Source: a virus (Duplodnaviria; Heunggongvirae; Uroviricota; Caudoviricetes). Taken from it: a stretch of DNA of 64,000 nucleotides. Of this stretch, positions 3,237-54,542 are shown in pieces. The stretch lies in IMG/VR virus record IMGVR_UViG_2645727901_000008; one strand, given 5' to 3'. Within the stretch, counting starts at the first letter, position 1; each line of letters starts with the position of its first letter. The notes beneath the pieces were generated by a model. The model was not told where the DNA came from. It searched no databases and saw only the letters and a list, made by a program, of their open reading frames with translations. The translations under genes and the position numbers were made by a program.

Positions 3237-4058
3237 TTAATAATGGTTAGCCATCCATTCAGATCTAATTGATGGGATAAACTCTCTATTGAGAAAGGGG
3301 ACGTACAGTGTGGTTGTCACATCTGCACCCTCCTTAGCGTTTTTGCAATGTTGCGGAGGCAGGATCAGTCGGCTTGTGCCTCTCTCAATAGACATTTTCA
3401 GGCCGTGGCGTAGGTCTTTTTGCATAAGCTGTATGCGAGCCACAAGCGGTGTAAACTCGGTTTCAAGCGCCATGCTTTCAATGATGTCGAAGCGTCGGTT
3501 AGCTGCTTGAGTGAAGTCTTCCGGATCGTCGTCCAGTGCTGTGCATAAAGCGAGTTCTGCAATGCGCATACGGGCCACGCCTGCACTGTATTCAGGGCTT
3601 TTCATATCAGGAAGTGACGCACGCATACGTTCAAGGAGTTCCGCGCCTTTCCCGGTTAATGGTTTAAGTATCCAGTCAGTTGGTACGCCGTTTACCGGTA
3701 CGTTGGTTTTTACGTAAGGCGGTACAGTGAGTATCTCTACTGTTTGAGCCAGATCGCTCAGGTTTATATCGGCGTGATGCGTATTACCGCAGTGACTGCA
3801 CTCATAGGAGTAGGTCATTACTGCATCGGGGCGCGAATTAACAAATATCCACCAAAGAGCAGTTCTGCGATCCTGAACTGTCCAGTTAGCACTGTCGTTA
3901 ATTTCACCATCCTGCATAGAGTTAAGGTACTCTGTAGTAGTTGCCTCATCTTCTGCCGGGTTCAGGTCAGAATATTTCAGCGCATCCTTCACGGTAGGGG
4001 CGTGGAACTGAATTTCTGTCTCAGGACGGGAAGGCAATGGGAATTTTGGAATGTTCAA
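3237..4058 (-). CDS. Hypothetical tail morphogenesis protein, Cys/His-containing
   Basis: 273-aa ORF directly upstream of sit; TTG start preceded by GGAGG; CSHCGNTHH motif. Confidence 0.45.
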   Translation of the reverse strand: MNIPKFPLPSRPETEIQFHAPTVKDALKYSDLNPAEDEATTTEYLNSMQDGEINDSANWTVQDRRTALWWIFVNSRPDAVMTYSYECSHCGNTHHADINLSDLAQTVEILTVPPYVKTNVPVNGVPTDWILKPLTGKGAELLERMRASLPDMKSPEYSAGVARMRIAELALCTALDDDPEDFTQAANRRFDIIESMALETEFTPLVARIQLMQKDLRHGLKMSIERGTSRLILPPQHCKNAKEGADVTTTLYVPFLNREFIPSIRSEWMANHY

Positions 4059-4162
4059 TTATTCCTCCGAAAAGCAGGTATCTGTTCATTTTCCAGAGGA
4101 TAGGGAGTGTGTGATTTGCGATGGGGATTGAATGAAGATCTTTGCTAGTCGAGAAGCGATTA

Positions 4163-4304
4163 TTGAGGGTGATTTTTACACCTTAAGTGACGCTACTCAC
4201 ATATCCACAGAGTATTTTTATAAACCTTTTTCCATTTTTAATCCTTTTTAGATCCTTTTTAGGCGTCGCTGGAGCCAGTAGTGGCGCGGGCTGTAGAGGA
4301 GGCT
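4163..4304. promoter_or_regulatory. Putative replication-origin flank: DnaA-box-like ATATCCACA, GATC sites, inverted iteron copy
   Basis: ATATCCACA near 4201, GATC at about 4137 and 4250, iteron-like ttgagggtgatttttacacc near 4163. Confidence 0.4.
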
Positions 4305-4432
4305 GGTGTAAGATTTGCCCTCAATTAAATACGATCGGTGTAAGATTCGCCCTCAAAAGGTGTAAGATTTGCCCTCAAAAGGTGTAGTAATTGCCCTCAA
4401 AGTGATGTAAAAATTGCCCTCACCATTCGAAG
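4305..4432 (+). repeat. Five direct ~20-bp iterons upstream of repA (incC-like)
   Basis: GGTGTAAGATTTGCCCTCAA and close variants at about 4305, 4337, 4359, 4381, 4402 with 21-22 bp spacing. Confidence 0.8.
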
Positions 4433-4446
4433 GAACACACAGGGTT

Positions 4447-5202
4447 ATGAACAGAGCGGAATTAACAGCAAAAGCCGTCAGCCTGATTGAGTCAGCGACA
4501 CCTATTAGTCGTAGTTTGGCACAAGCCAATGAGATCACGGAGGCTGCTTATCACCTGACTCGCGACCAAAAGCGACTGTTGTTTATTGTGGTGGGAAGAC
4601 TTCGCTATGCTTCTAAGGATGGCGTTCTTGGTTCAGGTGCCTGTGAGTTGACGGTCAACGAATATGCAGAGATGTATAATTTGCCCTCTGCTGAAGCCAG
4701 CAAGGATATTCGTAAGGCCATTTCAGGGCTTAGCGAGAAGAAAGTTACGATATATAACCCTGATGAATCGACCGAATCAGAAGACAGTTATGAGTCTTAT
4801 CCTTGGATGATTAAGGATGCCTATTCACCACGGCGCGGGACTTACATTATTCATCTTAATCCATATCTCATGCCGTTTTTTACTCTGCTTGATAAGAGAT
4901 TCACGAGGCTGAATTTTACCGAAGTATCTCGCCTTACAAATCCTTATTCTATGCGGCTTTATGAGTCCTTATGCCAGTACAGGAAGGATGATGGAAGCGG
5001 CTTTGCCATACTTGGCGTCGAATGGATGCGGGAGCGTTATGGGTTACCAAAAAGCTATCAGCGGTATGCCGAATTTAAGAGAAGTTTTTTAACGAAGGCT
5101 GTAGCAGAGATTGAAAAAAATACAAAAATGAAAATAGTCTTCTCAGAGGTGACGGAAGGCGGAAAAGTTACCAGGATAAAATTTACCTATCAGCAGTCTT
5201 AA
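4447..5202 (+). CDS. repA: Iteron-binding plasmid replication initiator RepA-like
   Basis: Flanked by iteron arrays on both sides; ATG at 4447 follows the last iteron (the track's TTG at 4414 lies inside an iteron). Confidence 0.75.
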   Translation: MNRAELTAKAVSLIESATPISRSLAQANEITEAAYHLTRDQKRLLFIVVGRLRYASKDGVLGSGACELTVNEYAEMYNLPSAEASKDIRKAISGLSEKKVTIYNPDESTESEDSYESYPWMIKDAYSPRRGTYIIHLNPYLMPFFTLLDKRFTRLNFTEVSRLTNPYSMRLYESLCQYRKDDGSGFAILGVEWMRERYGLPKSYQRYAEFKRSFLTKAVAEIEKNTKMKIVFSEVTEGGKVTRIKFTYQQS

Positions 5203-5537
5203 GGGCAATTTTTACACCCTTCTCAAGGTGTAGAATTTGCCCTTAACGATCGGCAATTGAGGGCAATTTTTACATCTTAATTGCATGTATCTTGTTATTA
5301 GCAAGTTGTGTTTTTATATAACGTATTGATATGTAAGGATTATGTAAAAATCACCCTCAACCAATATCGTGCGTATCGTGCATTCTTATTGCGCTTTTTT
5401 ATTATCATTCACTGTGTTAACTGATTGATATTATTGAAATGTGTAAAGAATGCCTTCATTACAGATGAATTGATGATGTAAAAAATGCCCTCAAAATTGC
5501 GCTACCTTCCCTACCCGCTATCGTTGAGGGCGTGGGT
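5201..5537. repeat. Downstream iteron cluster in both orientations (incA-like copy-control locus)
   Basis: At least six copies of the GTGTAAAAATTGCCCTCAA family in both orientations after the repA stop. Confidence 0.7.
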
Positions 5538-5583
5538 GCTGACGGGAAATGAGCAACCCTCCAGCACACATAATTAAAGCGCT

Positions 5584-6291
5584 TCAGAATTTAATCACTC
5601 CACTCACAGCTCCCTTTAACGCACTTGTAGCCATGCCTGCGGCACCGTTGACCAAAGCAGAAACACCTGAGCCTGCGGATGTGTATTTCTGGAAAGTGAT
5701 TGGGTATGACAAGAACTCTGACACCTGATCACGTGAGCGAGTGATTTCCCCAAGTTGTGTAGGAAATACGCGCATTTCTTCTTCCAGTTCTTTTCCGCCG
5801 TCCTGAGTCACCCGGTAGACACGGATTTTCATCAGATATTCAGGAGGAAGGTTTATTGTTCCATCAGGGTTTGTTACACGAGAACGACGCTCTTTGAACC
5901 AGTCCATGATCTTGCCATCTTCGGTATCCCTCACGGTCATAGTGACCGGTCCGGCGCTAACATAGGTTGGCTTGCTGAATTCTACGCTGCCGATCACCTT
6001 GCTTTCTGTCTCAATGTTTCCACTGCTGTAGGTGATATCCTTCACGAACATATCGAAGCCGTTCAGGCCATCCACTTCAACGGTCCACTGCCACCCCTGG
6101 GCGTAACGGATACGCATAGCGGCAGCAACAATATTTTTCCCGTAGGCAATATCGCTACTGTAATTCCCGCTTACCCCGCCGCCTGATATGGCTTTATCAA
6201 GAATGTCGCTAATGAGGTTGCTGGTGAATGATTTCGTGTTAAATGACAATGCGGTGGTCAACGTTCTACCAACGCTGCTGAAAATACTCAC
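5584..6291 (-). CDS. Putative tail structural protein
   Basis: 235-aa ORF, GTG start with GGAGG RBS, in the tail gene block. Confidence 0.4.
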   Translation of the reverse strand: MSIFSSVGRTLTTALSFNTKSFTSNLISDILDKAISGGGVSGNYSSDIAYGKNIVAAAMRIRYAQGWQWTVEVDGLNGFDMFVKDITYSSGNIETESKVIGSVEFSKPTYVSAGPVTMTVRDTEDGKIMDWFKERRSRVTNPDGTINLPPEYLMKIRVYRVTQDGGKELEEEMRVFPTQLGEITRSRDQVSEFLSYPITFQKYTSAGSGVSALVNGAAGMATSALKGAVSGVIKF

Positions 6292-6306: not shown

Positions 6307-6858
6307 TTAAAAAATGGTAGCCCCCGGAATAATGGCCCGGTTTGAGGACATTTTTTCCTCTATCTCCTGCACTCGGGCATATAGCGTGGCTTCATCGGGC
6401 AGATCGGAGTAGTCAAATTTCCCGTCGATGGACGCTCTACGCTGCCGGGCGACATTTCTGACATTGATAAGCGCCTCCAGATATTCCTCCAGCATTCCAA
6501 TGATTGCAGGAGGCACTTGCCATTCATCCAGCTTTCTGTCGCGTAGATTAACCAGATAGAGCATCCGAAAAGGCCAGCGTTCTGAACCTGTTAGCTCTAA
6601 TTCAATAAAGCCGGATAATTCATCCGAATAGACCAACAGGCCATTGTTGTCGGTAACATGAACCAGAGAGAGATAATCTTCTGGCAATGGAATTGCAGTA
6701 CCACCAGCTTTTTCAAGTTTTAACGTTTTCACTACCCCTGCCCTGTCCTGATACGTGGTCAGAGCTTTGATCAGGAAGGCTTTCAGCGTTTCTTCTTCAC
6801 GCACAAGCAGTGGATTAAATCGTGCTTTAACGCTTTCTAATAATTCGGTTGGTGTCAT
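6307..6858 (-). CDS. Hypothetical tail-assembly protein
   Basis: First ATG (6858) with GGAG RBS; the track start at 6897 is TTG. Confidence 0.4.
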   Translation of the reverse strand: MTPTELLESVKARFNPLLVREEETLKAFLIKALTTYQDRAGVVKTLKLEKAGGTAIPLPEDYLSLVHVTDNNGLLVYSDELSGFIELELTGSERWPFRMLYLVNLRDRKLDEWQVPPAIIGMLEEYLEALINVRNVARQRRASIDGKFDYSDLPDEATLYARVQEIEEKMSSNRAIIPGATIF

Positions 6859-6912
6859 CGTGCCTACAACTCCAAAACAAAGATGTTCCCGCCACAAGGG
6901 CGGGAGCGGGGA

Positions 6913-7404
6913 TTATTCTGCCCAGTTGTAAACAATACGCAGAGAAGGTTTAACAACAGCCGTTACGTCTTCGGAAGAGAAGTCCACGGCGTCGGAATAC
7001 ACTTTGCAGTGAGAATATGTGCGGATCAGACCTTTATGGTTACCGCTATTCGATTCAGCCGCCGCCTGTAAGGTAATTTCCAGATATTCTTTTCCGTATA
7101 CCATCTGTTTTACAGCGGCGAGAACTGCGCCTTCGATAGTTTCCGCGCATGTGACCTGAAATTCACCAGAGTTGCGTAATGGTCCGTGCTGGTTGAATTT
7201 CATGCCACCAGGGGCGTAATCCTCCACATCTTCACGTGTCATTTCTGGTAACTGAGCTGTACGAACTAGTACAGACAGATGTTCGTAACCCTTAATGGTC
7301 ATCCAATATTCAGAACCAATAAGTTTTTCGCCTGCAGCCAGGTTTTTATTAAACCGGGATTTTAGAAAGGCCATATCGGCTTTTGTATTTGCAAAACCGG
7401 ACAT
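6913..7404 (-). CDS. Putative tail tube protein (T4 gp19-like size and C-terminus)
   Basis: 163 aa, downstream of the sheath-like gene, GGAG RBS. Confidence 0.45.
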   Translation of the reverse strand: MSGFANTKADMAFLKSRFNKNLAAGEKLIGSEYWMTIKGYEHLSVLVRTAQLPEMTREDVEDYAPGGMKFNQHGPLRNSGEFQVTCAETIEGAVLAAVKQMVYGKEYLEITLQAAAESNSGNHKGLIRTYSHCKVYSDAVDFSSEDVTAVVKPSLRIVYNWAE

Positions 7405-15565: not shown

Positions 15566-15724
15566 ATTCTCAATTCGTTCTCAAATAAATCTCACTGTCA
15601 GACCATCATTCGGTGGGTGATTAAGATATTCTCAAAATAAACTCAACAATCGCTCTTTTTATCTCGTTTGGTGTGGATTTTTGGGTGCTTCTCTTTTAAA
15701 ATTACATTTTGGTTCTCAAATGTG
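15566..15724. repeat. parC-like centromere: iterated TTCTCAA(A/T) repeats upstream of parM
   Basis: At least four TTCTCAA copies between 15566 and 15724. Confidence 0.5.
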
Positions 15725-15745
15725 TCTCAGAAGTGGAGCAAGAAG

Positions 15746-16702
15746 ATGCGCATTTTTATCGATGATGGTTCAACCAATATCAAAATGCTGTGGGAGCACG
15801 ACGGGGAAACTCGCACTCACATCAGCCCTAACAGCTTTAAGCGCGGATGGTCAGCAACATTTGGTGCTGGCAAGCCATTTAACTATGTCATTGACGACGA
15901 AAAGTATTCGTATGATTTGATCTCGCCAGATGTTCTGCCGACGAATAACGTGGAATGGCAATACAGCCCGCTTAACGTCCTGGCTGTTCACCATGCCCTG
16001 CTGACAAGTGGCATTGAGCCGCAGGAAGTAGAAATTGTGGTTACGCTGCCACTGGCGGAGTTTTACGACGACGACGCGCAATACAATCTCGATAACATCG
16101 AGCGCAAGAAAGCCAGCCTTATGCGCCCCGTCACGCTGAATAAAGGCAATGTATTCACGATTAAGAAAGTTACGGTACGCCCGGAGTCTATTCCGGCAGG
16201 AATTGGTCTGTGCGACAATCTGAACCCTGCCCACTCTGTTCTTATCGTCGATTTGGGTGGAACTACCCTTGATGTTTCAATGGTCGCCGGGCAAATGACG
16301 GCAGTTTCCCGTGTTTTTGGCGATTCGAATCTTGGTGTATCACTGGTCACCAGGGAAGTAAGGCAAGCACTTGCCAGAGCCAATACCGAAACGTCAAATT
16401 ACAATGTCGATCAGCTCATTATTAACCGCCACGATGAAGATTATCTGAACGACAATATCAATGACCCATCAGCGGTTGGTGATGTGAAAAAGGCCATTGC
16501 CGCAAGCATTGACCGTCTGCGTACCCGCGTTCTTGATGTGATTGGCGACTTTAAAGGATATACGCATGTCATGGTGATCGGTGGTGGCGCACCGCTGGTG
16601 GCAGATGCAATTCGCGAGCAAGTTAATATTCGTGATGACCGTTTCTTCGTGGCGGATGACCCGCAACTTGCTCTTGTTCATGGCCTGAAAGCAATCGGTT
16701 AA
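15746..16702 (+). CDS. parM: Actin-like plasmid segregation ATPase (ParM/StbA family)
   Basis: Actin-fold motifs IFIDDGSTNIK, IVDLGGTTLD, MVIGGGAP; GGAG RBS. Confidence 0.75.
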   Translation: MRIFIDDGSTNIKMLWEHDGETRTHISPNSFKRGWSATFGAGKPFNYVIDDEKYSYDLISPDVLPTNNVEWQYSPLNVLAVHHALLTSGIEPQEVEIVVTLPLAEFYDDDAQYNLDNIERKKASLMRPVTLNKGNVFTIKKVTVRPESIPAGIGLCDNLNPAHSVLIVDLGGTTLDVSMVAGQMTAVSRVFGDSNLGVSLVTREVRQALARANTETSNYNVDQLIINRHDEDYLNDNINDPSAVGDVKKAIAASIDRLRTRVLDVIGDFKGYTHVMVIGGGAPLVADAIREQVNIRDDRFFVADDPQLALVHGLKAIG

Positions 16703-16715
16703 CGAGGTAATGTCC

Positions 16716-17054
16716 ATGTCTCAGGAACGTAAGAAAGTGATGATTTATCTTCGCCCAGAGGCTTATGCCAATGAAAAGGCGGCGAGCGAGAAGATAAAAA
16801 AACATAGCGATATGGCAAGAACCGCATTGTTGGCAGGGCTTGCGCTGGGAGAAGTCGATAGCAGGCTTCCAGGATTACTGGCTTCCCTGCTGACCGAAGA
16901 CAATAACCCGGAGCTGATCCGAAAAATGCTGGCATCCTTCCTGGAACTACCAGCTGCGGTTGAGGAGCGCCCTGCCTCCATTGAGCCAGTGAAGGAGCAA
17001 GTTGTTGCCAAAAGCGCGTCGGCGCGTAATCTTGCTGATTCTCTACCTGATTGA
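16716..17054 (+). CDS. parR: ParR/StbB-like centromere-binding adaptor
   Basis: Small ORF immediately after parM, ATG 16716 with GAGG RBS. Confidence 0.5.
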   Translation: MSQERKKVMIYLRPEAYANEKAASEKIKKHSDMARTALLAGLALGEVDSRLPGLLASLLTEDNNPELIRKMLASFLELPAAVEERPASIEPVKEQVVAKSASARNLADSLPD

Positions 17055-17326: not shown

Positions 17327-17974
17327 ATGGACATGATTATCCTGGTAGCAAGTCAAAAGGGAGGCTGTGGCAAGTCAACCACCAGCGTCAATATTTGTGC
17401 CGAGCTGGCCCGAAAAAACAAAGATGTCGTCTTGATTGATGCTGATAAGCAGGGAACGGCAGCTCGATGGGCGTCAGACCGTAATTCGTCCGAAGTGACA
17501 CCAGTTATTCATTGCGTCCAGAAGTTTGGAAATATTCGAGAAACTCTGCTCGATCTTAACAATCGATATGAATACGTGGTTGTTGATACCGCAGGTCGTG
17601 ATAGTAAAGAGATGCGCACAGGTATAACGGCGGCGGATATTCTATTGGTTCCATTCAGGCCGTCTCAGCCAGATTTGGACACGCTGGCACACTTTGTTGA
17701 GGTGTTTGAAGAGGCTTTGGATCTGATGCCTAATCCCAATATTAAGGCGTGCGCAGTCTTAACTATGGCCCCGTCAAATCCGGTTGTGAATGAAGCAAAT
17801 GAGGCCAAAGAGTATCTGGCAGAATATCCGCAACTGAAATTGCTGAAAACCATTATTCGCGATCGCAAGGTTTACCGCGACTGCATGGCTGAAGGAAAGG
17901 GTGTTGTTGAGATGGATAACGGTAAGGCGAAAGGTGAAATTCAGATGTTAGTTAAGGAGTTGCTAAGTGATTAA
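17327..17974 (+). CDS. parA: ParA/ParF-type partition ATPase (small deviant Walker-A)
   Basis: KGGCGKST deviant Walker A motif, 215 aa. Confidence 0.8.
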   Translation: MDMIILVASQKGGCGKSTTSVNICAELARKNKDVVLIDADKQGTAARWASDRNSSEVTPVIHCVQKFGNIRETLLDLNNRYEYVVVDTAGRDSKEMRTGITAADILLVPFRPSQPDLDTLAHFVEVFEEALDLMPNPNIKACAVLTMAPSNPVVNEANEAKEYLAEYPQLKLLKTIIRDRKVYRDCMAEGKGVVEMDNGKAKGEIQMLVKELLSD

Positions 17975-51672: not shown

Positions 51673-53178
51673 TATATCCAGATCTGGCATTTCCACATCT
51701 GCAAGAACCTGATCGCGGAAGGTAGCCATTTCAGCGCCGATATCTTCATTAGCAGGAACATAGTCCACCAGCATTGTAAAGCAGTAGGTATCCCATCGGT
51801 CAGGTGATTTGATGTTCAGCTTTTGCCGCATGTGCTCCTTGCGCATCATCGCCATCTTCCCTTCTTCATTAAGTAAAAAGGGGATTTTTGACGCTTGCTC
51901 TGCCGTTTTAGGGTCACTGTCTATTCGCATACGACCTGACTTTATGGCATCACGAGCCATAATATTTGCGTAGGCACGTTGGTTAACAAAACGCTCCTTG
52001 TCTTTGTTCGAAAACATGGGTTTCCCCCACCGAATACGTACCGGATTAGCCCCACGGCGCACCAGCTGCGCACAGGTATCTGAACCAAAACCGTCTGCGT
52101 CAACCGCGATTGTAATATTCGGGTATTTATCCGGCGTGCATTCGTTGTATATAAAGTCAGCAAAAGCCAGCGGGTCCATAGTCCCTGGCATTTCCATTAT
52201 CTTAAAGTTAACAACGCGCCGCTTATTCCTGTGACCTGACACCTTGCAGATGTTAAGGACCGACTTGTCTCGCCCGTTCCCAACGTCAGCTGTCGCTACC
52301 CACCCCCAATTTTTCTCCAACAACACCTTGCGCCGCGCAGCGCGATCGCATTCATCACGACCAAGCAAATAGCCGTTAATCTCCCGAGGGAACTGACCAA
52401 GCACCTTAACCATATACTCAATAGAATCGCGCCCGCCATATTCCAGGAGTTTCTGCCTGATGAATTGTGGTGTGACGAACGGTGATTCTTCTGAGTTAAG
52501 AACAATTGCTGTCCAGATCCCTTTCGGGTTGTCTGGGGTTTTAGCTTGAGAATGGTGCGAATCGTAGAAATAACCACTTGGCCTTGTTGGCTGGGATAGC
52601 ATCAACATTCGGTTATCTTCTTCAGTAAGAGCACCGGTCATTACGCCGATCGCCTTATCAGATATACCAGATGCTTCATCCAGAATTAGAAGCAAATGTG
52701 CCGCGTGTTCCCCCGCCAGCGCTTCTTCGTTGCCGAGTCGATAACCTTTGCAGAGAACTTCCCAAATCCCCTTACGGGAGCGCTCATAAAACATGGTGTC
52801 AGAGAGGACAAAATAGGTCTGCAACCACCCATGACGCTTAACTGCATTCGCCCAATACTGTTTAACGTATTTGAATACGCCTGTTTTTACCTGGCCTATC
52901 TTGTTAGCAACAATGATGACACGGGCATCGGGGAACAGGATCATAAAAATCAACAGCAACATCGCGGTAAGGGACGACTTCCCCGTTCCGTGTCCGGACG
53001 TGACGGTAGTCCTACTCCCCGTTTCCTGCACTGACTGAATGATCTGCTGCTGCTGGTGGGAGGGGAACATCCCAAAAATATCGACAACAGCCTGGGTAAA
53101 GTTGTAGCGGTATTTGATTACCATATCGCGCCAGCGTGGATCGCTGGTGACGCATTTAATCTTGCGCCCGCCAGCCAT
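51670..53178 (-). CDS. pacB: Terminase large subunit (PacB-like)
   Basis: Walker A GHGTGKSS; 502 aa; GGAGGATG RBS. Confidence 0.8.
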   Translation of the reverse strand: MAGGRKIKCVTSDPRWRDMVIKYRYNFTQAVVDIFGMFPSHQQQQIIQSVQETGSRTTVTSGHGTGKSSLTAMLLLIFMILFPDARVIIVANKIGQVKTGVFKYVKQYWANAVKRHGWLQTYFVLSDTMFYERSRKGIWEVLCKGYRLGNEEALAGEHAAHLLLILDEASGISDKAIGVMTGALTEEDNRMLMLSQPTRPSGYFYDSHHSQAKTPDNPKGIWTAIVLNSEESPFVTPQFIRQKLLEYGGRDSIEYMVKVLGQFPREINGYLLGRDECDRAARRKVLLEKNWGWVATADVGNGRDKSVLNICKVSGHRNKRRVVNFKIMEMPGTMDPLAFADFIYNECTPDKYPNITIAVDADGFGSDTCAQLVRRGANPVRIRWGKPMFSNKDKERFVNQRAYANIMARDAIKSGRMRIDSDPKTAEQASKIPFLLNEEGKMAMMRKEHMRQKLNIKSPDRWDTYCFTMLVDYVPANEDIGAEMATFRDQVLADVEMPDLDI

Positions 53179-54542
53179 TAATCATCCTCCGGCGGTTCTA
53201 TCGCGATATCATCATCTCCGGCGTCATACCCTGCATCAGATACATCATAATCACCGTAAATTTCAGCCGTTGCCGAAGGGTCAATATCCAGCTCTTCGTC
53301 GTTGGCCTCGAATTCTCCAGCTTTACGCTCGCCATTGCGGTCGTAATCTCCGCACCCCAATTCTTCAACAATGGTTGCCACATCCGCCCGGCGCTCTGCC
53401 AGCCATTGCGGATGGTTAGCCTGAAGCGTTGCAAACTCCCTTGCCTCTTTGTCCAGCTGTTCATCATCAACATCATTGACGTCAGAAACAGGTGGTTCGA
53501 GAAGAGTGATAGCTTTCGCCGCGCGCGCCGCGAGGATAGCCGGGACGCTGACCCCCTGGCGCTCGATGTATTCAGCAACACCGATATCATCCAGTTCCTC
53601 GCGCTCACGCATACGTATAGCGGCGGCGATAACTCTGGCTGCGCGTGCGTCAGCGCCAATGCGATATTCAATCTCTTTGCCACGCTGTTCGGCCTGTAGG
53701 CGTGCTAATTCGAGTTTTTCTCTGGCCTCAGCCTCTTTGAATGCTTGCTGGCGAGCGCTCTGACGAAGCTTTTCATCCCCCTGTCGCAGCTTTTGTTCGG
53801 ACTGATATATAGCTGCCAACCTACTGATAAAATCATTCATGTAGTAGGCCGCGTCACTGATTAGACCGAGAAGACGCTGCCCAGGGTGCATTCCTTCTGG
53901 CTCTTTATCGCCCAAGGCGTCTATTTCCGCCTGTAGGCGTTCGGCCTCCTGATCAACAATGCTTTGATACTGAAGTGCGCGCTCTTGCGCCATTTGAATT
54001 GCTAACCGCAGGTGTTCTTCTGCGCCGTTCTTCATCATATCGCGAGCCACATTCGTAGTGGGCAATGTGGCACGCTGCACAGCACCGTCAGGGATCATTG
54101 CAGAAGATCCCTCAATTTTTGGGGCGCTTTTATCTTCTTCGGGGATCATTTTCGCCATTTTTTCGCGCAATGATCTCCTGACAGATTCTTTTATCTCATT
54201 GTTATTATTTGCATTATTTTCATGATCCGAAGTTTTCTTTCTCGGCATACTTCGGAAAGAACCTGCGCCCTGCGAATTGTCAATTTCTGTAAATTTTGTT
54301 TTTTCTGCACCCTCTTCCAGCTTTTTTGTTGCTCTTCCCGCCCGTTTTTTTTCAGGTGATTTGGTGCTTTTTTTTGTTGTCTTTACCTGCGACCGCACCT
54401 CATTTTTTTTCATATTGAGATGCTTTCTGGCTGTATTGAAGCTAAGGCCATGCTCCTCACAGTATTCCTTTACAGTGATCCCTTTTTCTTCACGCAACGC
54501 TATAAAGCGGGCGCGGTGCTCCTCCCAATTAACCAGACTCAT
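53178..54542 (-). CDS. pacA: Terminase small subunit (PacA-like)
   Basis: Upstream of and coupled to pacB; contains a GATC-rich pac-like region. Confidence 0.7.
   Translation of the reverse strand: MSLVNWEEHRARFIALREEKGITVKEYCEEHGLSFNTARKHLNMKKNEVRSQVKTTKKSTKSPEKKRAGRATKKLEEGAEKTKFTEIDNSQGAGSFRSMPRKKTSDHENNANNNNEIKESVRRSLREKMAKMIPEEDKSAPKIEGSSAMIPDGAVQRATLPTTNVARDMMKNGAEEHLRLAIQMAQERALQYQSIVDQEAERLQAEIDALGDKEPEGMHPGQRLLGLISDAAYYMNDFISRLAAIYQSEQKLRQGDEKLRQSARQQAFKEAEAREKLELARLQAEQRGKEIEYRIGADARAARVIAAAIRMREREELDDIGVAEYIERQGVSVPAILAARAAKAITLLEPPVSDVNDVDDEQLDKEAREFATLQANHPQWLAERRADVATIVEELGCGDYDRNGERKAGEFEANDEELDIDPSATAEIYGDYDVSDAGYDAGDDDIAIEPPEDD
54090..54230. other. pac-like cluster of GATC hexamers inside pacA
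   Basis: Five GATC sites in about 135 bp. Confidence 0.4.

What the first reader, a model, noticed from the sequence alone, without database searches (positions are those of the whole stretch)
4163..5537. Iteron replicon flanked by tail-gene blocks; RepA and iterons unlike the P1 sequences I recall
Five incC-like iterons, repA, then an incA-like iteron cluster reproduce the P1 plasmid-replicon architecture, but the iteron sequence (GGTGTAAGATTTGCCCTCAA) differs and the replicon lies between the Sit-like gene and the tube/sheath block rather than next to P1-type parAB. This suggests replicon exchange and a distinct incompatibility group.
Basis: partly seen in the sequence, partly recalled or inferred. 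Interest (0 to 1): 0.5.

Follow-up and report, generated by a model that had tools for sequence, protein, structure and literature searches.

The report
Plasmid replicon of a D6-like phage
This is the already-described plasmid-maintenance origin of a phage-D6-like P1 relative, whose initiator resembles F-plasmid RepE rather than P1 RepA; the one unexpected feature is that its control region also carries two "orphan" binding sites of the P1 initiator type.

Summary
Twelve iteron sites (≥18 bits) all lie in 4163-5494, around a 251-aa Rep gene (4447-5202), far above chance.

The window is 99.3% identical here to phage D6 and to about 100 E. coli, Salmonella and Shigella plasmids of ~90 kb. So this is the known replicon of the D6 subgroup (P1-g2).

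I also found it is not the "p0111" type, whose RepB is a P1 RepA homologue. Its closest characterised relative is mini-F ori2/repE/incC. Rep is 50% identical to RepE (PDB 1REP, E = 1e-73), the iterons share the TTGCCCTCA half, and the DnaA-box/AT-rich origin aligns with F. It sits between pmgB and tub, which are adjacent in P1, about 10.5 kb from a ParMR partition system.

New here: two P1-RepA-type iterons (5531-5549, 5554-5572) lie at the right edge, and no P1-type RepA is encoded in D6 or the window. Related elements show swapped RepE-type and RepA-type cassettes whose arrays contain both iteron types, and one plasmid has both initiator genes converging on a shared spacer. That is direct evidence for replicon exchange. 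Whether the orphan sites still act is unknown.

The parts
3237..4058 (-). pmgB-like late gene; left flank of the cassette
   Evidence: D6 annotation 'similar to P1 gene pmgB'; ORF list; weak T4_baseplate Pfam hit
4163..4182 (-). Upstream D6-type iteron in inverted orientation (GGTGTAAAAATCACCCTCAA)
   Evidence: 23.8 bits with the 5-copy PWM; conserved in D6, pEF-4, pMIN14 and pEC361_3
4201..4209 (+). DnaA-box-like ATATCCACA (1 mismatch to TTATCCACA). It aligns with the second of the tandem DnaA boxes of F ori2 and of clade relatives.
   Evidence: alignment A2
4183..4261 (.). AT-rich region (28% GC) with repeated CCTTTTT tracts and one GATC; presumed unwinding element
   Evidence: composition; alignable with the F ori2 AT-rich region
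4262..4303 (.). GC-rich spacer (71% GC) between the AT-rich region and the iterons
   Evidence: a GC-rich spacer occupies the same position in the clade relatives, with a less GC-rich counterpart in F ori2
4305..4423 (+). Five direct 20-bp origin iterons (4305, 4337, 4359, 4381, 4404)
   Evidence: 25.7-30.6 bits; the repeat finder D1/D2; relatives with Rep identity of 60-78% have five and Nissabacter (57%) has six
4406..4414 (+). Candidate extended -10 (TGTAAAAAT) of the rep promoter, inside iteron 5. Inference only.
   Evidence: Only 23 bp separate iteron 5 from the ATG. The consensus scan finds no promoter here; this is the best relaxed match.
4447..5202 (+). rep: 251-aa RepE-like Rep_3 initiator (WH1 + WH2)
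   Evidence: Pfam; PDB 1REP E = 1.4e-73; 50% identity to F RepE; 100% identical to an NCBI 'RepB family' cluster of 222 members
4671..4690 (+). Intragenic iteron-like site (GATGTATAATTTGCCCTCTG; encodes EMYNLPS)
   Evidence: 18.0 bits; present at the same gene position in L018, L020, L021 and L023 (Rep identity 57-71%) but not in L015
5199..5494 (.). Downstream control-iteron cluster: 5199-5218(-), 5227-5246(+), 5257-5276(-), 5341-5360(+), 5440-5459(+, weak), 5475-5494(+)
   Evidence: 18.8-27.3 bits, weak site 11.9; positions conserved in the ~70%-identical spacers of pEF-4 and pMIN14
5319..5331 (-). IHF-consensus-like site (TATCAATACGTTA) between downstream iterons
   Evidence: pattern match only
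5418..5430 (-). IHF-consensus-like site (TATCAATCAGTTA)
   Evidence: pattern match only
5531..5549 (+). Orphan P1-RepA-type iteron, degenerate (CGTGGGTGCTGACGGGAAA)
   Evidence: 17.1 bits with a PWM of the 14 annotated P1 iterons; second-best site in the window; shuffles give a mean of 0.087 sites of this score per 64 kb
5554..5572 (-). Orphan P1-RepA-type iteron (TATGTGTGCTGGAGGGTTG), convergent with the previous site, 11 bp from the tub stop codon
   Evidence: 23.7 bits, inside the range of true P1 iterons (18.4-31.1); 15/15 exact match to the P1 iteron core; 0 of 300 shuffles reach it; present in 13 of 15 IMG/VR loci
5584..6291 (-). tub (tail tube) gene; right flank of the cassette
   Evidence: D6 annotation; 51% identical to P1 Tub
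15668..17054 (+). ParM (15668-16702) and ParR-like (16710-17054) type II partition genes, ~10.5 kb from the replicon
   Evidence: StbA_N 2e-69, ParM C-terminal domain (PF21523) 8e-55, Plasmid_stab_B 3.5e-11
17327..17974 (+). Small ParA-like ATPase
   Evidence: AAA_31, CbiA and ParA Pfam hits; D6 orf60 note

Best explanation
Window 4163-5572 is the prophage-plasmid (theta-type, iteron-controlled) replicon of a phage-D6-like member of the P1 group (subgroup P1-g2).

Shown:
- It encodes a RepE-like two-winged-helix initiator.
- The origin reads: DnaA box, AT-rich stretch, GC spacer, five direct iterons.
- A second iteron cluster follows the gene.

Inferred by homology with mini-F RepE and analogy with P1 RepA:
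- Rep monomers bind the five origin iterons and, together with host DnaA, open the AT-rich region for DnaB loading.
- Because only 23 bp separate the last iteron from the start codon, the rep promoter must overlap the iterons. Rep binding should therefore repress its own synthesis.
- The downstream, upstream and intragenic iterons titrate Rep and pair with the origin ('handcuffing') to hold copy number low.
- Partition is supplied in trans by a ParMR system ~10.5 kb away.

The cassette sits between pmgB and tub and differs in family, sequence and position from the P1 IncY and p0111 replicons.

Two P1-RepA-type iterons lie at its right edge. They are most likely inherited from mixed iteron arrays created when RepE-type and RepA-type cassettes were exchanged, or once coexisted tail to tail, in related phage-plasmids.
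For: Identity of the element:
- 99.3% identical to D6 and 95-99.7% identical to about 100 circular plasmids of ~90 kb typed rep_cluster_1704.
- The D6 annotation shows pmgB | rep | tub.

Family:
- Rep3_N and Rep3_C; PDB RepE 1REP at 1.4e-73; 50% identity to F RepE.
- The origin aligns with F ori2 and with relatives of 57-78% Rep identity.
- Iterons: 12 sites >=18 bits, all within the locus, and beyond nearly all shuffles.

Not IncY, not p0111:
-.
- No other plasmid initiator was found in D6 1-58,994 or in the window.

Location:
- pmgB and tub are adjacent in P1 and in pO111_2.
- ParMR lies at 15.7-17.1 kb.
- Literature: pYU39_89 'repB associated with iteron sequences' (PMC6799933); replication and partition are separated by 14 genes in P1-g2 (PMC7969092).

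Exchange:
- L015 and L041 share flanks (87% and 92.5% identity) but carry RepE-type versus P1-RepA-type cassettes. Both have mixed arrays.
- Nissabacter CP028040 has both initiator genes convergent.
Against: - No experiment here shows that this segment replicates autonomously or which proteins bind which sites.
- The consensus scan found no sigma-70 promoter upstream of rep.
- Only one intact DnaA box is present, and it has one mismatch.
- The F-type inverted-repeat operator is absent, so the mode of autoregulation is assumed rather than shown.
- The D6 genome paper (Gilcrease & Casjens 2018) could not be read. I cannot say exactly what it reports about this replicon.
Confidence: 0.88

Rival explanations
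1. The orphan P1-type iterons (5531-5572) are functional cross-incompatibility determinants. They would bind the RepA of a co-resident IncY P1-like prophage, titrating it or handcuffing its origin, so that the D6-like element interferes with a competing relative while replicating through its own RepE-like system.
For: - The sites match P1 iterons over all 19 positions (23.7 bits here; 25.8 and 28.4 in pEF-4) although the surrounding spacer is only ~71% identical.
- No cognate RepA is encoded in D6 or the window.
- The pair is the majority allele: 13 of 15 IMG/VR loci, and about 100 PLSDB records cover it at >=97% identity.
- Reciprocal arrangements exist. L015 has 6 strong P1-type sites beside a RepE-type initiator. 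L041 has 2 strong D6-type sites inside a P1-type incA-like array.
- From established P1 biology (my knowledge): extra incA iterons in trans lower P1 copy number.
Against: - The sites are dispensable and variable. Alleles with three, two or no sites exist (pEF-4; D6 and the window; pMIN14, pEC361_3, L027, L034).
- One of the two window sites is degenerate (17.1 bits).
- Two extra sites on a low-copy plasmid, against 14 on P1, should have only a small effect.
- Units 2 and 3 of the L015 array are recent duplicates, so their regularity is weak evidence of selection.
Confidence: 0.25
2. The P1-type sites are inert scars: leftovers of a lost convergent IncY-type replicon, or of recombination inside mixed arrays, now decaying.
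For: - The three/two/none allele series includes a 42-bp deletion that removes the best middle site in D6 and the window.
- A truncated D6-type half-site (TTGAGGGC, 5524-5531) is fused directly to the first P1-type site.
- A tail-to-tail dual replicon exists in Nissabacter.
- A cassette swap with shared flanks is seen in L015 and L041.
Against: The best site keeps near-consensus sequence in lineages whose surrounding non-coding DNA has diverged to ~70% identity, which is unexpected for neutral DNA.
Confidence: 0.55
3. The inverted pair at 5531-5572 is merely a transcription-terminator hairpin downstream of tub (or of rep), and its resemblance to P1 iterons is coincidental.
For: It is an imperfect inverted repeat 11 bp beyond the tub stop codon. 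The pEF-4 version folds at -37.8 kcal/mol, z = -8.
Against: - The window hairpin is not unusual (z = -1.5 and -1.7), and no U-run follows on either strand.
- The spacing between arms varies (0, 4, 23, 35 bp) among relatives.
- Single, unpaired P1-type sites and incC-like tandem sets occur in the related loci.
- A 15/15 core match to P1 iterons, with 0 of 300 shuffles reaching the score.
Confidence: 0.07
4. The locus is a variant of the P1 IncY R replicon or of the PlasmidFinder 'p0111' replicon.
For: - The overall layout is the same: origin iterons, rep, control iterons.
- Literature statements say P1-like phage-plasmids are 'consistently IncY or p0111' (PMC11165635).
- NCBI gives it the same 'RepB family' product name as p0111 RepB.
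Against: - Window Rep against P1 RepA gives E = 0.057, and against p0111 RepB E = 0.09. p0111 RepB is 41% identical to P1 RepA.
- There is no DNA match to pO111_2.
- The D6-type PWM has no hit in the P1 oriR/incA region.
- The genomic position is different.
Confidence: 0.02

Closest known systems
Phage D6 orf42 replicon, i.e. the D6-like (P1-g2) phage-plasmids such as pYU39_89; MOB-suite rep_cluster_1704
   Same: 99.3% DNA identity over 4100-5600. Same gene order (sit, pmgB, rep, tub), same iterons and the same P1-type pair.
   Different: The window is not D6 itself. Other parts of the window are only 85-95% identical to D6, and the best match is Salmonella Concord plasmid pGMI14-002_2 at 99.7%.
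Mini-F replicon (RepFIA: ori2 - repE - incC)
   Same: - Rep is 50% identical to RepE over 228 aa, and the solved RepE structures match at E ~1e-73.
- The origin has the same order: DnaA box(es), AT-rich region, spacer, direct iterons. The sequence is alignable.
- The iterons share the right half, TTGCCCTCA.
- A control-iteron cluster lies downstream of rep.
   Different: - The left half of the iteron differs (GGTGTAAGA versus TGTGACAA), and the D6-type PWM does not detect F iterons.
- There are five origin iterons, against four in F.
- No inverted-repeat operator lies between the iterons and the start codon (23 bp only).
- Downstream iterons are in mixed orientation; all are inverted in F.
- There is no adjacent sopABC.
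- The score is below the NCBIfam RepE equivalog cut-off (280.6 < 342).
P1 R replicon (IncY: oriR/incC - repA - incA - parAB)
   Same: - Same generic layout, including five origin iterons with the promoter presumably inside them.
- Two sites at 5531-5572 match P1 RepA iterons.
   Different: - The initiator is unrelated at BLAST level.
- The main iterons are different.
- There is one GATC in the AT-rich region, against five Dam sites in P1.
- It is located between pmgB and tub rather than beside parAB downstream of gene 23.
PlasmidFinder 'p0111' replicon (pO111_2 RepB)
   Same: Also a replicon of P1-group phage-plasmids, and also named 'RepB family' by NCBI.
   Different: p0111 RepB is a 294-aa P1 RepA homologue (41% identity) at the P1 repA position, with different iterons. 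It has no similarity to the window Rep or to its DNA.

Membership tests
Rep_3 iteron-type theta replicons | Initiator with WH1 (PF01051) and WH2 (PF21205) domains | tested here: met
   Rep3_N 2.9e-29 (102.7 bits, cut-off 22.4) and Rep3_C 9e-16 (58.3 bits, cut-off 21.1)
Rep_3 iteron-type theta replicons | Tandem direct repeats (iterons) next to the rep gene, beyond chance | tested here: met
   Five direct copies at 4305-4423. All 12 sites >=18 bits lie within the locus, against a shuffle mean maximum of 14.4.
Rep_3 iteron-type theta replicons | DnaA box and AT-rich unwinding region beside the iterons | tested here: met
   ATATCCACA at 4201-4209 (1 mismatch); 79 bp at 28% GC; conserved in alignment with F and clade relatives
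Rep_3 iteron-type theta replicons | Supports autonomous replication; Rep binds the iterons | not testable with these tools
   Indirect only. It is the sole recognisable plasmid initiator in D6 and the window, and it is present in ~100 circular plasmids.
F RepE / IncFIA (RepFIA) replicon | Initiator is a RepE equivalog | tested here: not met
   NF010305 scores 280.6 bits, below the cut-off of 342; 50% identity to F RepE. It is a sister lineage, not RepE itself.
F RepE / IncFIA (RepFIA) replicon | F-type iteron TGTGACAAATTGCCCTCAG (the incompatibility determinant) | tested here: not met
   Only the right half is shared. The D6-type PWM gives no hit >=9 bits on the F ori2 or incC iterons.
F RepE / IncFIA (RepFIA) replicon | Inverted-repeat operator at the repE promoter, between the iterons and the gene | tested here: not met
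   Only 23 bp separate iteron 5 from the ATG, and there is no inverted half-iteron there.
F RepE / IncFIA (RepFIA) replicon | Adjacent sopABC partition operon | tested here: not met
   tub follows immediately. Partition is by ParMR at 15.7-17.1 kb.
P1 R replicon / IncY | RepA homologous to P1 RepA | tested here: not met
   blastp E = 0.057. tblastn of P1 RepA against the window and D6 1-58,994 finds nothing at E <= 1.
P1 R replicon / IncY | 19-bp iterons of the GATGTGTGCTGGAGGGAAA type at the origin | tested here: not met
   The origin iterons are of a different type. Only two orphan P1-type sites exist, at 5531-5572.
P1 R replicon / IncY | Position next to parAB-parS, downstream of gene 23 | tested here: not met
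   P1 map against window and D6 map
PlasmidFinder p0111 | Similarity to pO111_2 repB (AP010962 = NC_013370) | tested here: not met
   Protein E = 0.09; no blastn hit
D6-like (P1-g2) phage-plasmid replicon | Near-identity to D6 orf42 and its iterons, with pmgB | rep | tub synteny | tested here: met
   99.3% identity over 1501 bp; synteny; identical iteron map

The most novel reading that the evidence does not exclude
P1-group phage-plasmids carry 'bilingual' copy-control arrays, in which iterons for two unrelated-looking initiators are interleaved: RepE-like and P1 RepA-like. In the D6-like window, the two orphan IncY-type iterons would still bind the RepA of a co-resident P1-like prophage. They would act as a built-in, one-sided incompatibility weapon or decoy against competing relatives. 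The mixed arrays would also serve as recombination substrates that allow replicon cassettes to be swapped.
Probability: 0.25. Interest if true: 0.65.

Novelty: already known. Interest (0 to 1): 0.35.

Why it matters
The replicon itself is ordinary. It identifies the window as a D6-like phage-plasmid and gives a practical point for typing. These widespread E. coli, Salmonella and Shigella elements of ~90 kb are neither IncY nor p0111. They carry a RepE-like replicon, so screens that use only those two markers will miss them.

The orphan P1-type iterons, and the reciprocal mixed arrays in related elements, are more interesting. They are a physical trace of replicon exchange between phage-plasmids. 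If they still bind the foreign initiator, they would be a simple natural mechanism of directed incompatibility between competing prophage-plasmids. That can be tested with existing P1 tools.

Tried and rejected
1. I assumed from the literature that the D6-type replicon was the PlasmidFinder 'p0111' type. Fetching pO111_2 rejected this: its RepB is a P1 RepA homologue at the P1 position.

2. I considered a simple 'scar of a replaced P1 replicon at this site'. This was weakened when L015 showed P1-type sites interleaved with D6-type iterons in repeated units. It was refined after L041 and Nissabacter.

3. I tested whether RepE-like dimers might bind the inverted P1-type pair as an operator. This is unlikely, because the arm spacing varies (0, 4, 23, 35 bp).

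4. Terminator hairpin: not supported in the window.

5. A P1 late-promoter (-22 box) PWM found no site upstream of pmgB or near tub. This is uninformative, because the specificity of D6 Lpa is unknown.

6. NZ_CP027382 (36 kb) was considered as a natural mini-replicon, but the record is linear and fragmentary, so it is unusable.

7. The Citrobacter relative has a 432-bp repeat-rich pmgB-tub spacer with no iterons of either type.

8. Gilcrease & Casjens 2018 (PMC5800970) is not held. Literature searches for mixed or orphan iterons in phage-plasmids found nothing relevant.

9. No L015-type element exists in PLSDB, so I could not check whether the full L015 contig also encodes a P1-type RepA elsewhere.
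Full report
**The observation**

The repeat finder lists five direct copies of about 20 bp at 4304-4424, plus related copies upstream and downstream in both orientations. I built a position weight matrix from the five origin copies and scanned the whole window. It gives 12 sites of at least 18 bits, and every one lies between 4163 and 5494. The best score anywhere else in the 64 kb is 15.3 bits. In 100 shuffles of the window the mean maximum was 14.4 and the highest 18.9.

The ORF at 4447-5202 encodes a 251-aa protein with both domains of the Rep_3 initiator family: Rep3_N 2.9e-29 and Rep3_C 9e-16.

**What the element is**

Window 4100-5600 is 99.3% identical to Escherichia phage D6 (NC_050154, 45494-46994). 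It is 95-99.7% identical to about 100 plasmids of ~90 kb from E. coli, Salmonella and Shigella, most of them non-mobilizable. The records inspected are typed by MOB-suite as rep_cluster_1704.

The D6 record annotates the gene as orf42, 'replication initiation protein, similar to P1 repA?, pfam01051'. It lies between a pmgB homologue and tub. The window is a D6 relative rather than D6 itself, because other parts of it are only 85-95% identical to D6.

The literature already covers this:
- In the D6 subgroup (P1-g2), replication and partition genes are separated by 14 persistent genes, whereas they are adjacent in the P1 subgroup (PMC7969092).

I could not read the D6 genome paper itself.

**Anatomy, left to right**

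1. Inverted iteron, 4163-4182.
2. DnaA-box-like ATATCCACA, 4201-4209.
3. A 79-bp AT-rich stretch (28% GC) with repeated CCTTTTT tracts and a single GATC.
4. A 42-bp GC-rich spacer (71% GC).
5. Five direct iterons, 4305-4423.
6. A 23-bp gap that includes an AAGGA ribosome-binding site.
7. rep, 4447-5202, with an iteron-like site inside it at 4671-4690.
8. Five strong and one weak iteron in mixed orientation, 5199-5494, with two IHF-consensus matches between them.

The consensus scan finds no sigma-70 promoter upstream of rep. The best relaxed candidate is an extended -10, TGTAAAAAT, inside iteron 5. With so little room before the start codon, the promoter must overlap the iterons. That is an inference.

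**Comparison with P1**

- Window Rep against P1 RepA: best blastp E = 0.057.
- tblastn of P1 RepA, ParA, ParB and RepL against the window finds nothing.
- P1 RepA is itself only a marginal Rep_3 match.
- In P1, pmgB and tub are 14 bp apart. The R replicon lies about 16 kb away, beside parAB-parS.

Partition in the window is by ParM and ParR-like genes plus a small ParA-like ATPase at 15.7-18.0 kb.

**A correction to my own working assumption**

Papers state that P1-like phage-plasmids are IncY or 'p0111' (PMC11165635), so I first equated the D6 type with p0111. Fetching the p0111 reference plasmid pO111_2 showed otherwise:
- Its 294-aa RepB is 41% identical to P1 RepA.
- It occupies the P1 repA position next to P1-type parAB.
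- It has no similarity to the window Rep (E = 0.09) or to its DNA.
- In pO111_2, pmgB and tub are adjacent.

The D6-type replicon is therefore a third type within the P1 group.

**Closest characterised relative**

The closest relative is the mini-F replicon:
- The window Rep matches the solved RepE structures at E ~1e-73 and is 50% identical to F RepE over 228 residues.
- The F iteron TGTGACAAATTGCCCTCAG and the D6-type iteron share the right half, TTGCCCTCA, and differ in the left half.
- The DnaA-box/AT-rich/spacer part aligns with F ori2 and with more distant clade members.

It is not an IncFIA replicon:
- It scores below the NCBIfam RepE equivalog cut-off (280.6 against 342).
- The D6-type matrix does not detect F iterons.
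- There are five origin iterons rather than four.
- The F-type inverted-repeat operator is missing.
- The downstream iterons are in mixed orientation.
- There is no sopABC.

In PLSDB the Rep forms a tight cluster: 108 records at >=95% identity, one at 60-80%, and all others below 60%.

**The unexpected part**

When I aligned the cassette with P1, the only hits were to P1 iterons. A matrix of the 14 annotated P1 RepA iterons gives its two best scores in the whole window at the right edge of the cassette:
- 5531-5549 (+), CGTGGGTGCTGACGGGAAA, 17.1 bits.
- 5554-5572 (-), TATGTGTGCTGGAGGGTTG, 23.7 bits.

True P1 iterons score 18.4-31.1 bits. The next-best site in the window scores 15.6, and none of 300 shuffles reached 23.7. 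The two sites are convergent, 4 bp apart, and end 11 bp before the tub stop codon.

Neither the window nor D6 1-58,994 encodes a P1-type RepA or a p0111-type RepB, so the sites are orphans.

They are not a quirk of one sequence. E. fergusonii pEF-4 has a Rep 99.6% identical to the window's, but its rep-tub spacer is only ~71% identical. It has better copies (25.8 and 28.4 bits) plus a degenerate third. D6 and the window lack a 42-bp segment that carries the middle copy. pMIN14 and pEC361_3 lack all of them. Of 15 complete IMG/VR loci, 13 have the window's allele and 2 have none.

**Where the orphan sites come from**

Three related loci explain it.

1. L015 is an ~87-kb contig with DarB, Ulx and DdrB-like neighbours, and its Rep is 78% identical to the window's. 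Its downstream region consists of three ~180-bp units. Each reads: [D6-type iteron +], spacer, [P1-type +][P1-type -], TT, [D6-type -]. It has six P1-type sites of 19-25 bits. The window carries one such unit, truncated at tub.

2. L041 is an ~86-kb IMG/VR contig found with the junction pattern. It shares the flanks of L015 (87% and 92.5% identity, including the 2234-aa DarB-like gene) but carries a P1-type RepA instead (81% identical to P1 RepA). It has five incC-spaced P1-type iterons. Its downstream array of P1-type pairs contains two strong D6-type iterons of 27.7 and 25.8 bits.

3. In Nissabacter plasmid CP028040, a RepE-like gene (57% identical to the window Rep) and a P1 RepA homologue (47.5% identity, E = 2e-81) converge on one 825-bp spacer. 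That spacer holds the control iterons of the RepA homologue plus one D6-type iterons' worth of the other type, a single D6-type iteron.

Together these show that RepE-type and RepA-type cassettes have coexisted tail to tail and have been exchanged at a single locus in related phage-plasmids, and that their control arrays retain iterons of both kinds.

**What the orphan sites do now**

This is open. The allele series (three, two, none) and a truncated D6-type half-site fused to the first P1-type site point to decaying scars. I give that reading about 0.55.

Against pure neutrality, the best site keeps near-consensus sequence while the surrounding spacer has diverged to ~70% identity. The alternative is that the sites still bind the RepA of a co-resident IncY prophage and so interfere with it. 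I give that about 0.25.

A plain terminator hairpin is unlikely. In the window the fold is unremarkable (z = -1.5 and -1.7), no U-run follows, and the arm spacing varies among relatives.

I found nothing on such mixed arrays in the searchable literature, but the key D6 paper was not available.

**Verdict**

The finding is a correct reading of a known element: the plasmid replicon of D6-like phage-plasmids. Mechanistically it is a standard iteron-controlled Rep_3 replicon of the RepE lineage. It is not a member of IncFIA, IncY or p0111. The replicon itself is of low interest. The orphan P1-type iterons and the reciprocal mixed arrays are a modest, testable addition.

Noticed in passing
window 5531-5572; L006 3820-3917; L015 5757-6290; L041 1739-2223: Iterons of two initiator types (RepE-like 'D6-type' and P1 RepA-type) are interleaved in the downstream control arrays of related phage-plasmids. 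L015 and L041 share flanks but carry opposite initiator cassettes.
   Followed up: yes
L021 (Nissabacter sp. SGAir0207 plasmid CP028040.1) 3700-6900: Tail-to-tail dual replicon. A RepE-like gene and a P1 RepA homologue (47.5% identity) converge on one 825-bp iteron-filled spacer, and each has its own origin on the outer side.
   Followed up: partly
window 4671-4690: An iteron-like site inside the rep coding sequence (encodes EMYNLPS). It is conserved at the same position in relatives whose Rep is only 57-71% identical (L018, L020, L021, L023), but it is absent from L015 and from F repE.
   Followed up: partly
L013 (Citrobacter portucalensis NZ_CP099368) 6703-7134: A distant D6/P1-group relative has a 432-bp non-coding insert at the same tub|pmgB junction. 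It holds about 11 tandem 8-bp repeats (CTCATAYA) and several ATTGTCATA repeats. It might be a centromere-like or other protein-binding array. The junction seems to be a hotspot for inserted modules.
   Followed up: no
L008 (E. coli NZ_CP095127) 3819-5466: An IS200/IS605-family element (tnpA + tnpB-like) is inserted inside the downstream iteron cluster of an otherwise typical D6-type replicon. It separates the last iteron and the P1-type pair from the rest.
   Followed up: no
L011 (pO111_2, NC_013370) record 52496-53305: In the p0111 reference plasmid, two small genes, one encoding a GIY-YIG nuclease family protein, lie between parA and repB. P1 has only incA at that position.
   Followed up: no
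P1 iterons (L004 11487-12791) compared with window iterons: The P1 iteron (GATGTGTG-CTGGAGGGAAA) looks like an F/D6-type left half (TGTG...) joined to the reverse complement of the F/D6 right half (TTnCCCTC). This may hint at a common origin of the two iteron types, with one half-site flipped. It is sequence inspection only.
   Followed up: no
L020 (JGI 3300073836 contig, Rep 63% identical) 4744-5869: This relative has an unusually long downstream array of about 24 D6-type iterons, nearly all in the inverted orientation, spread over ~1.1 kb.
   Followed up: no
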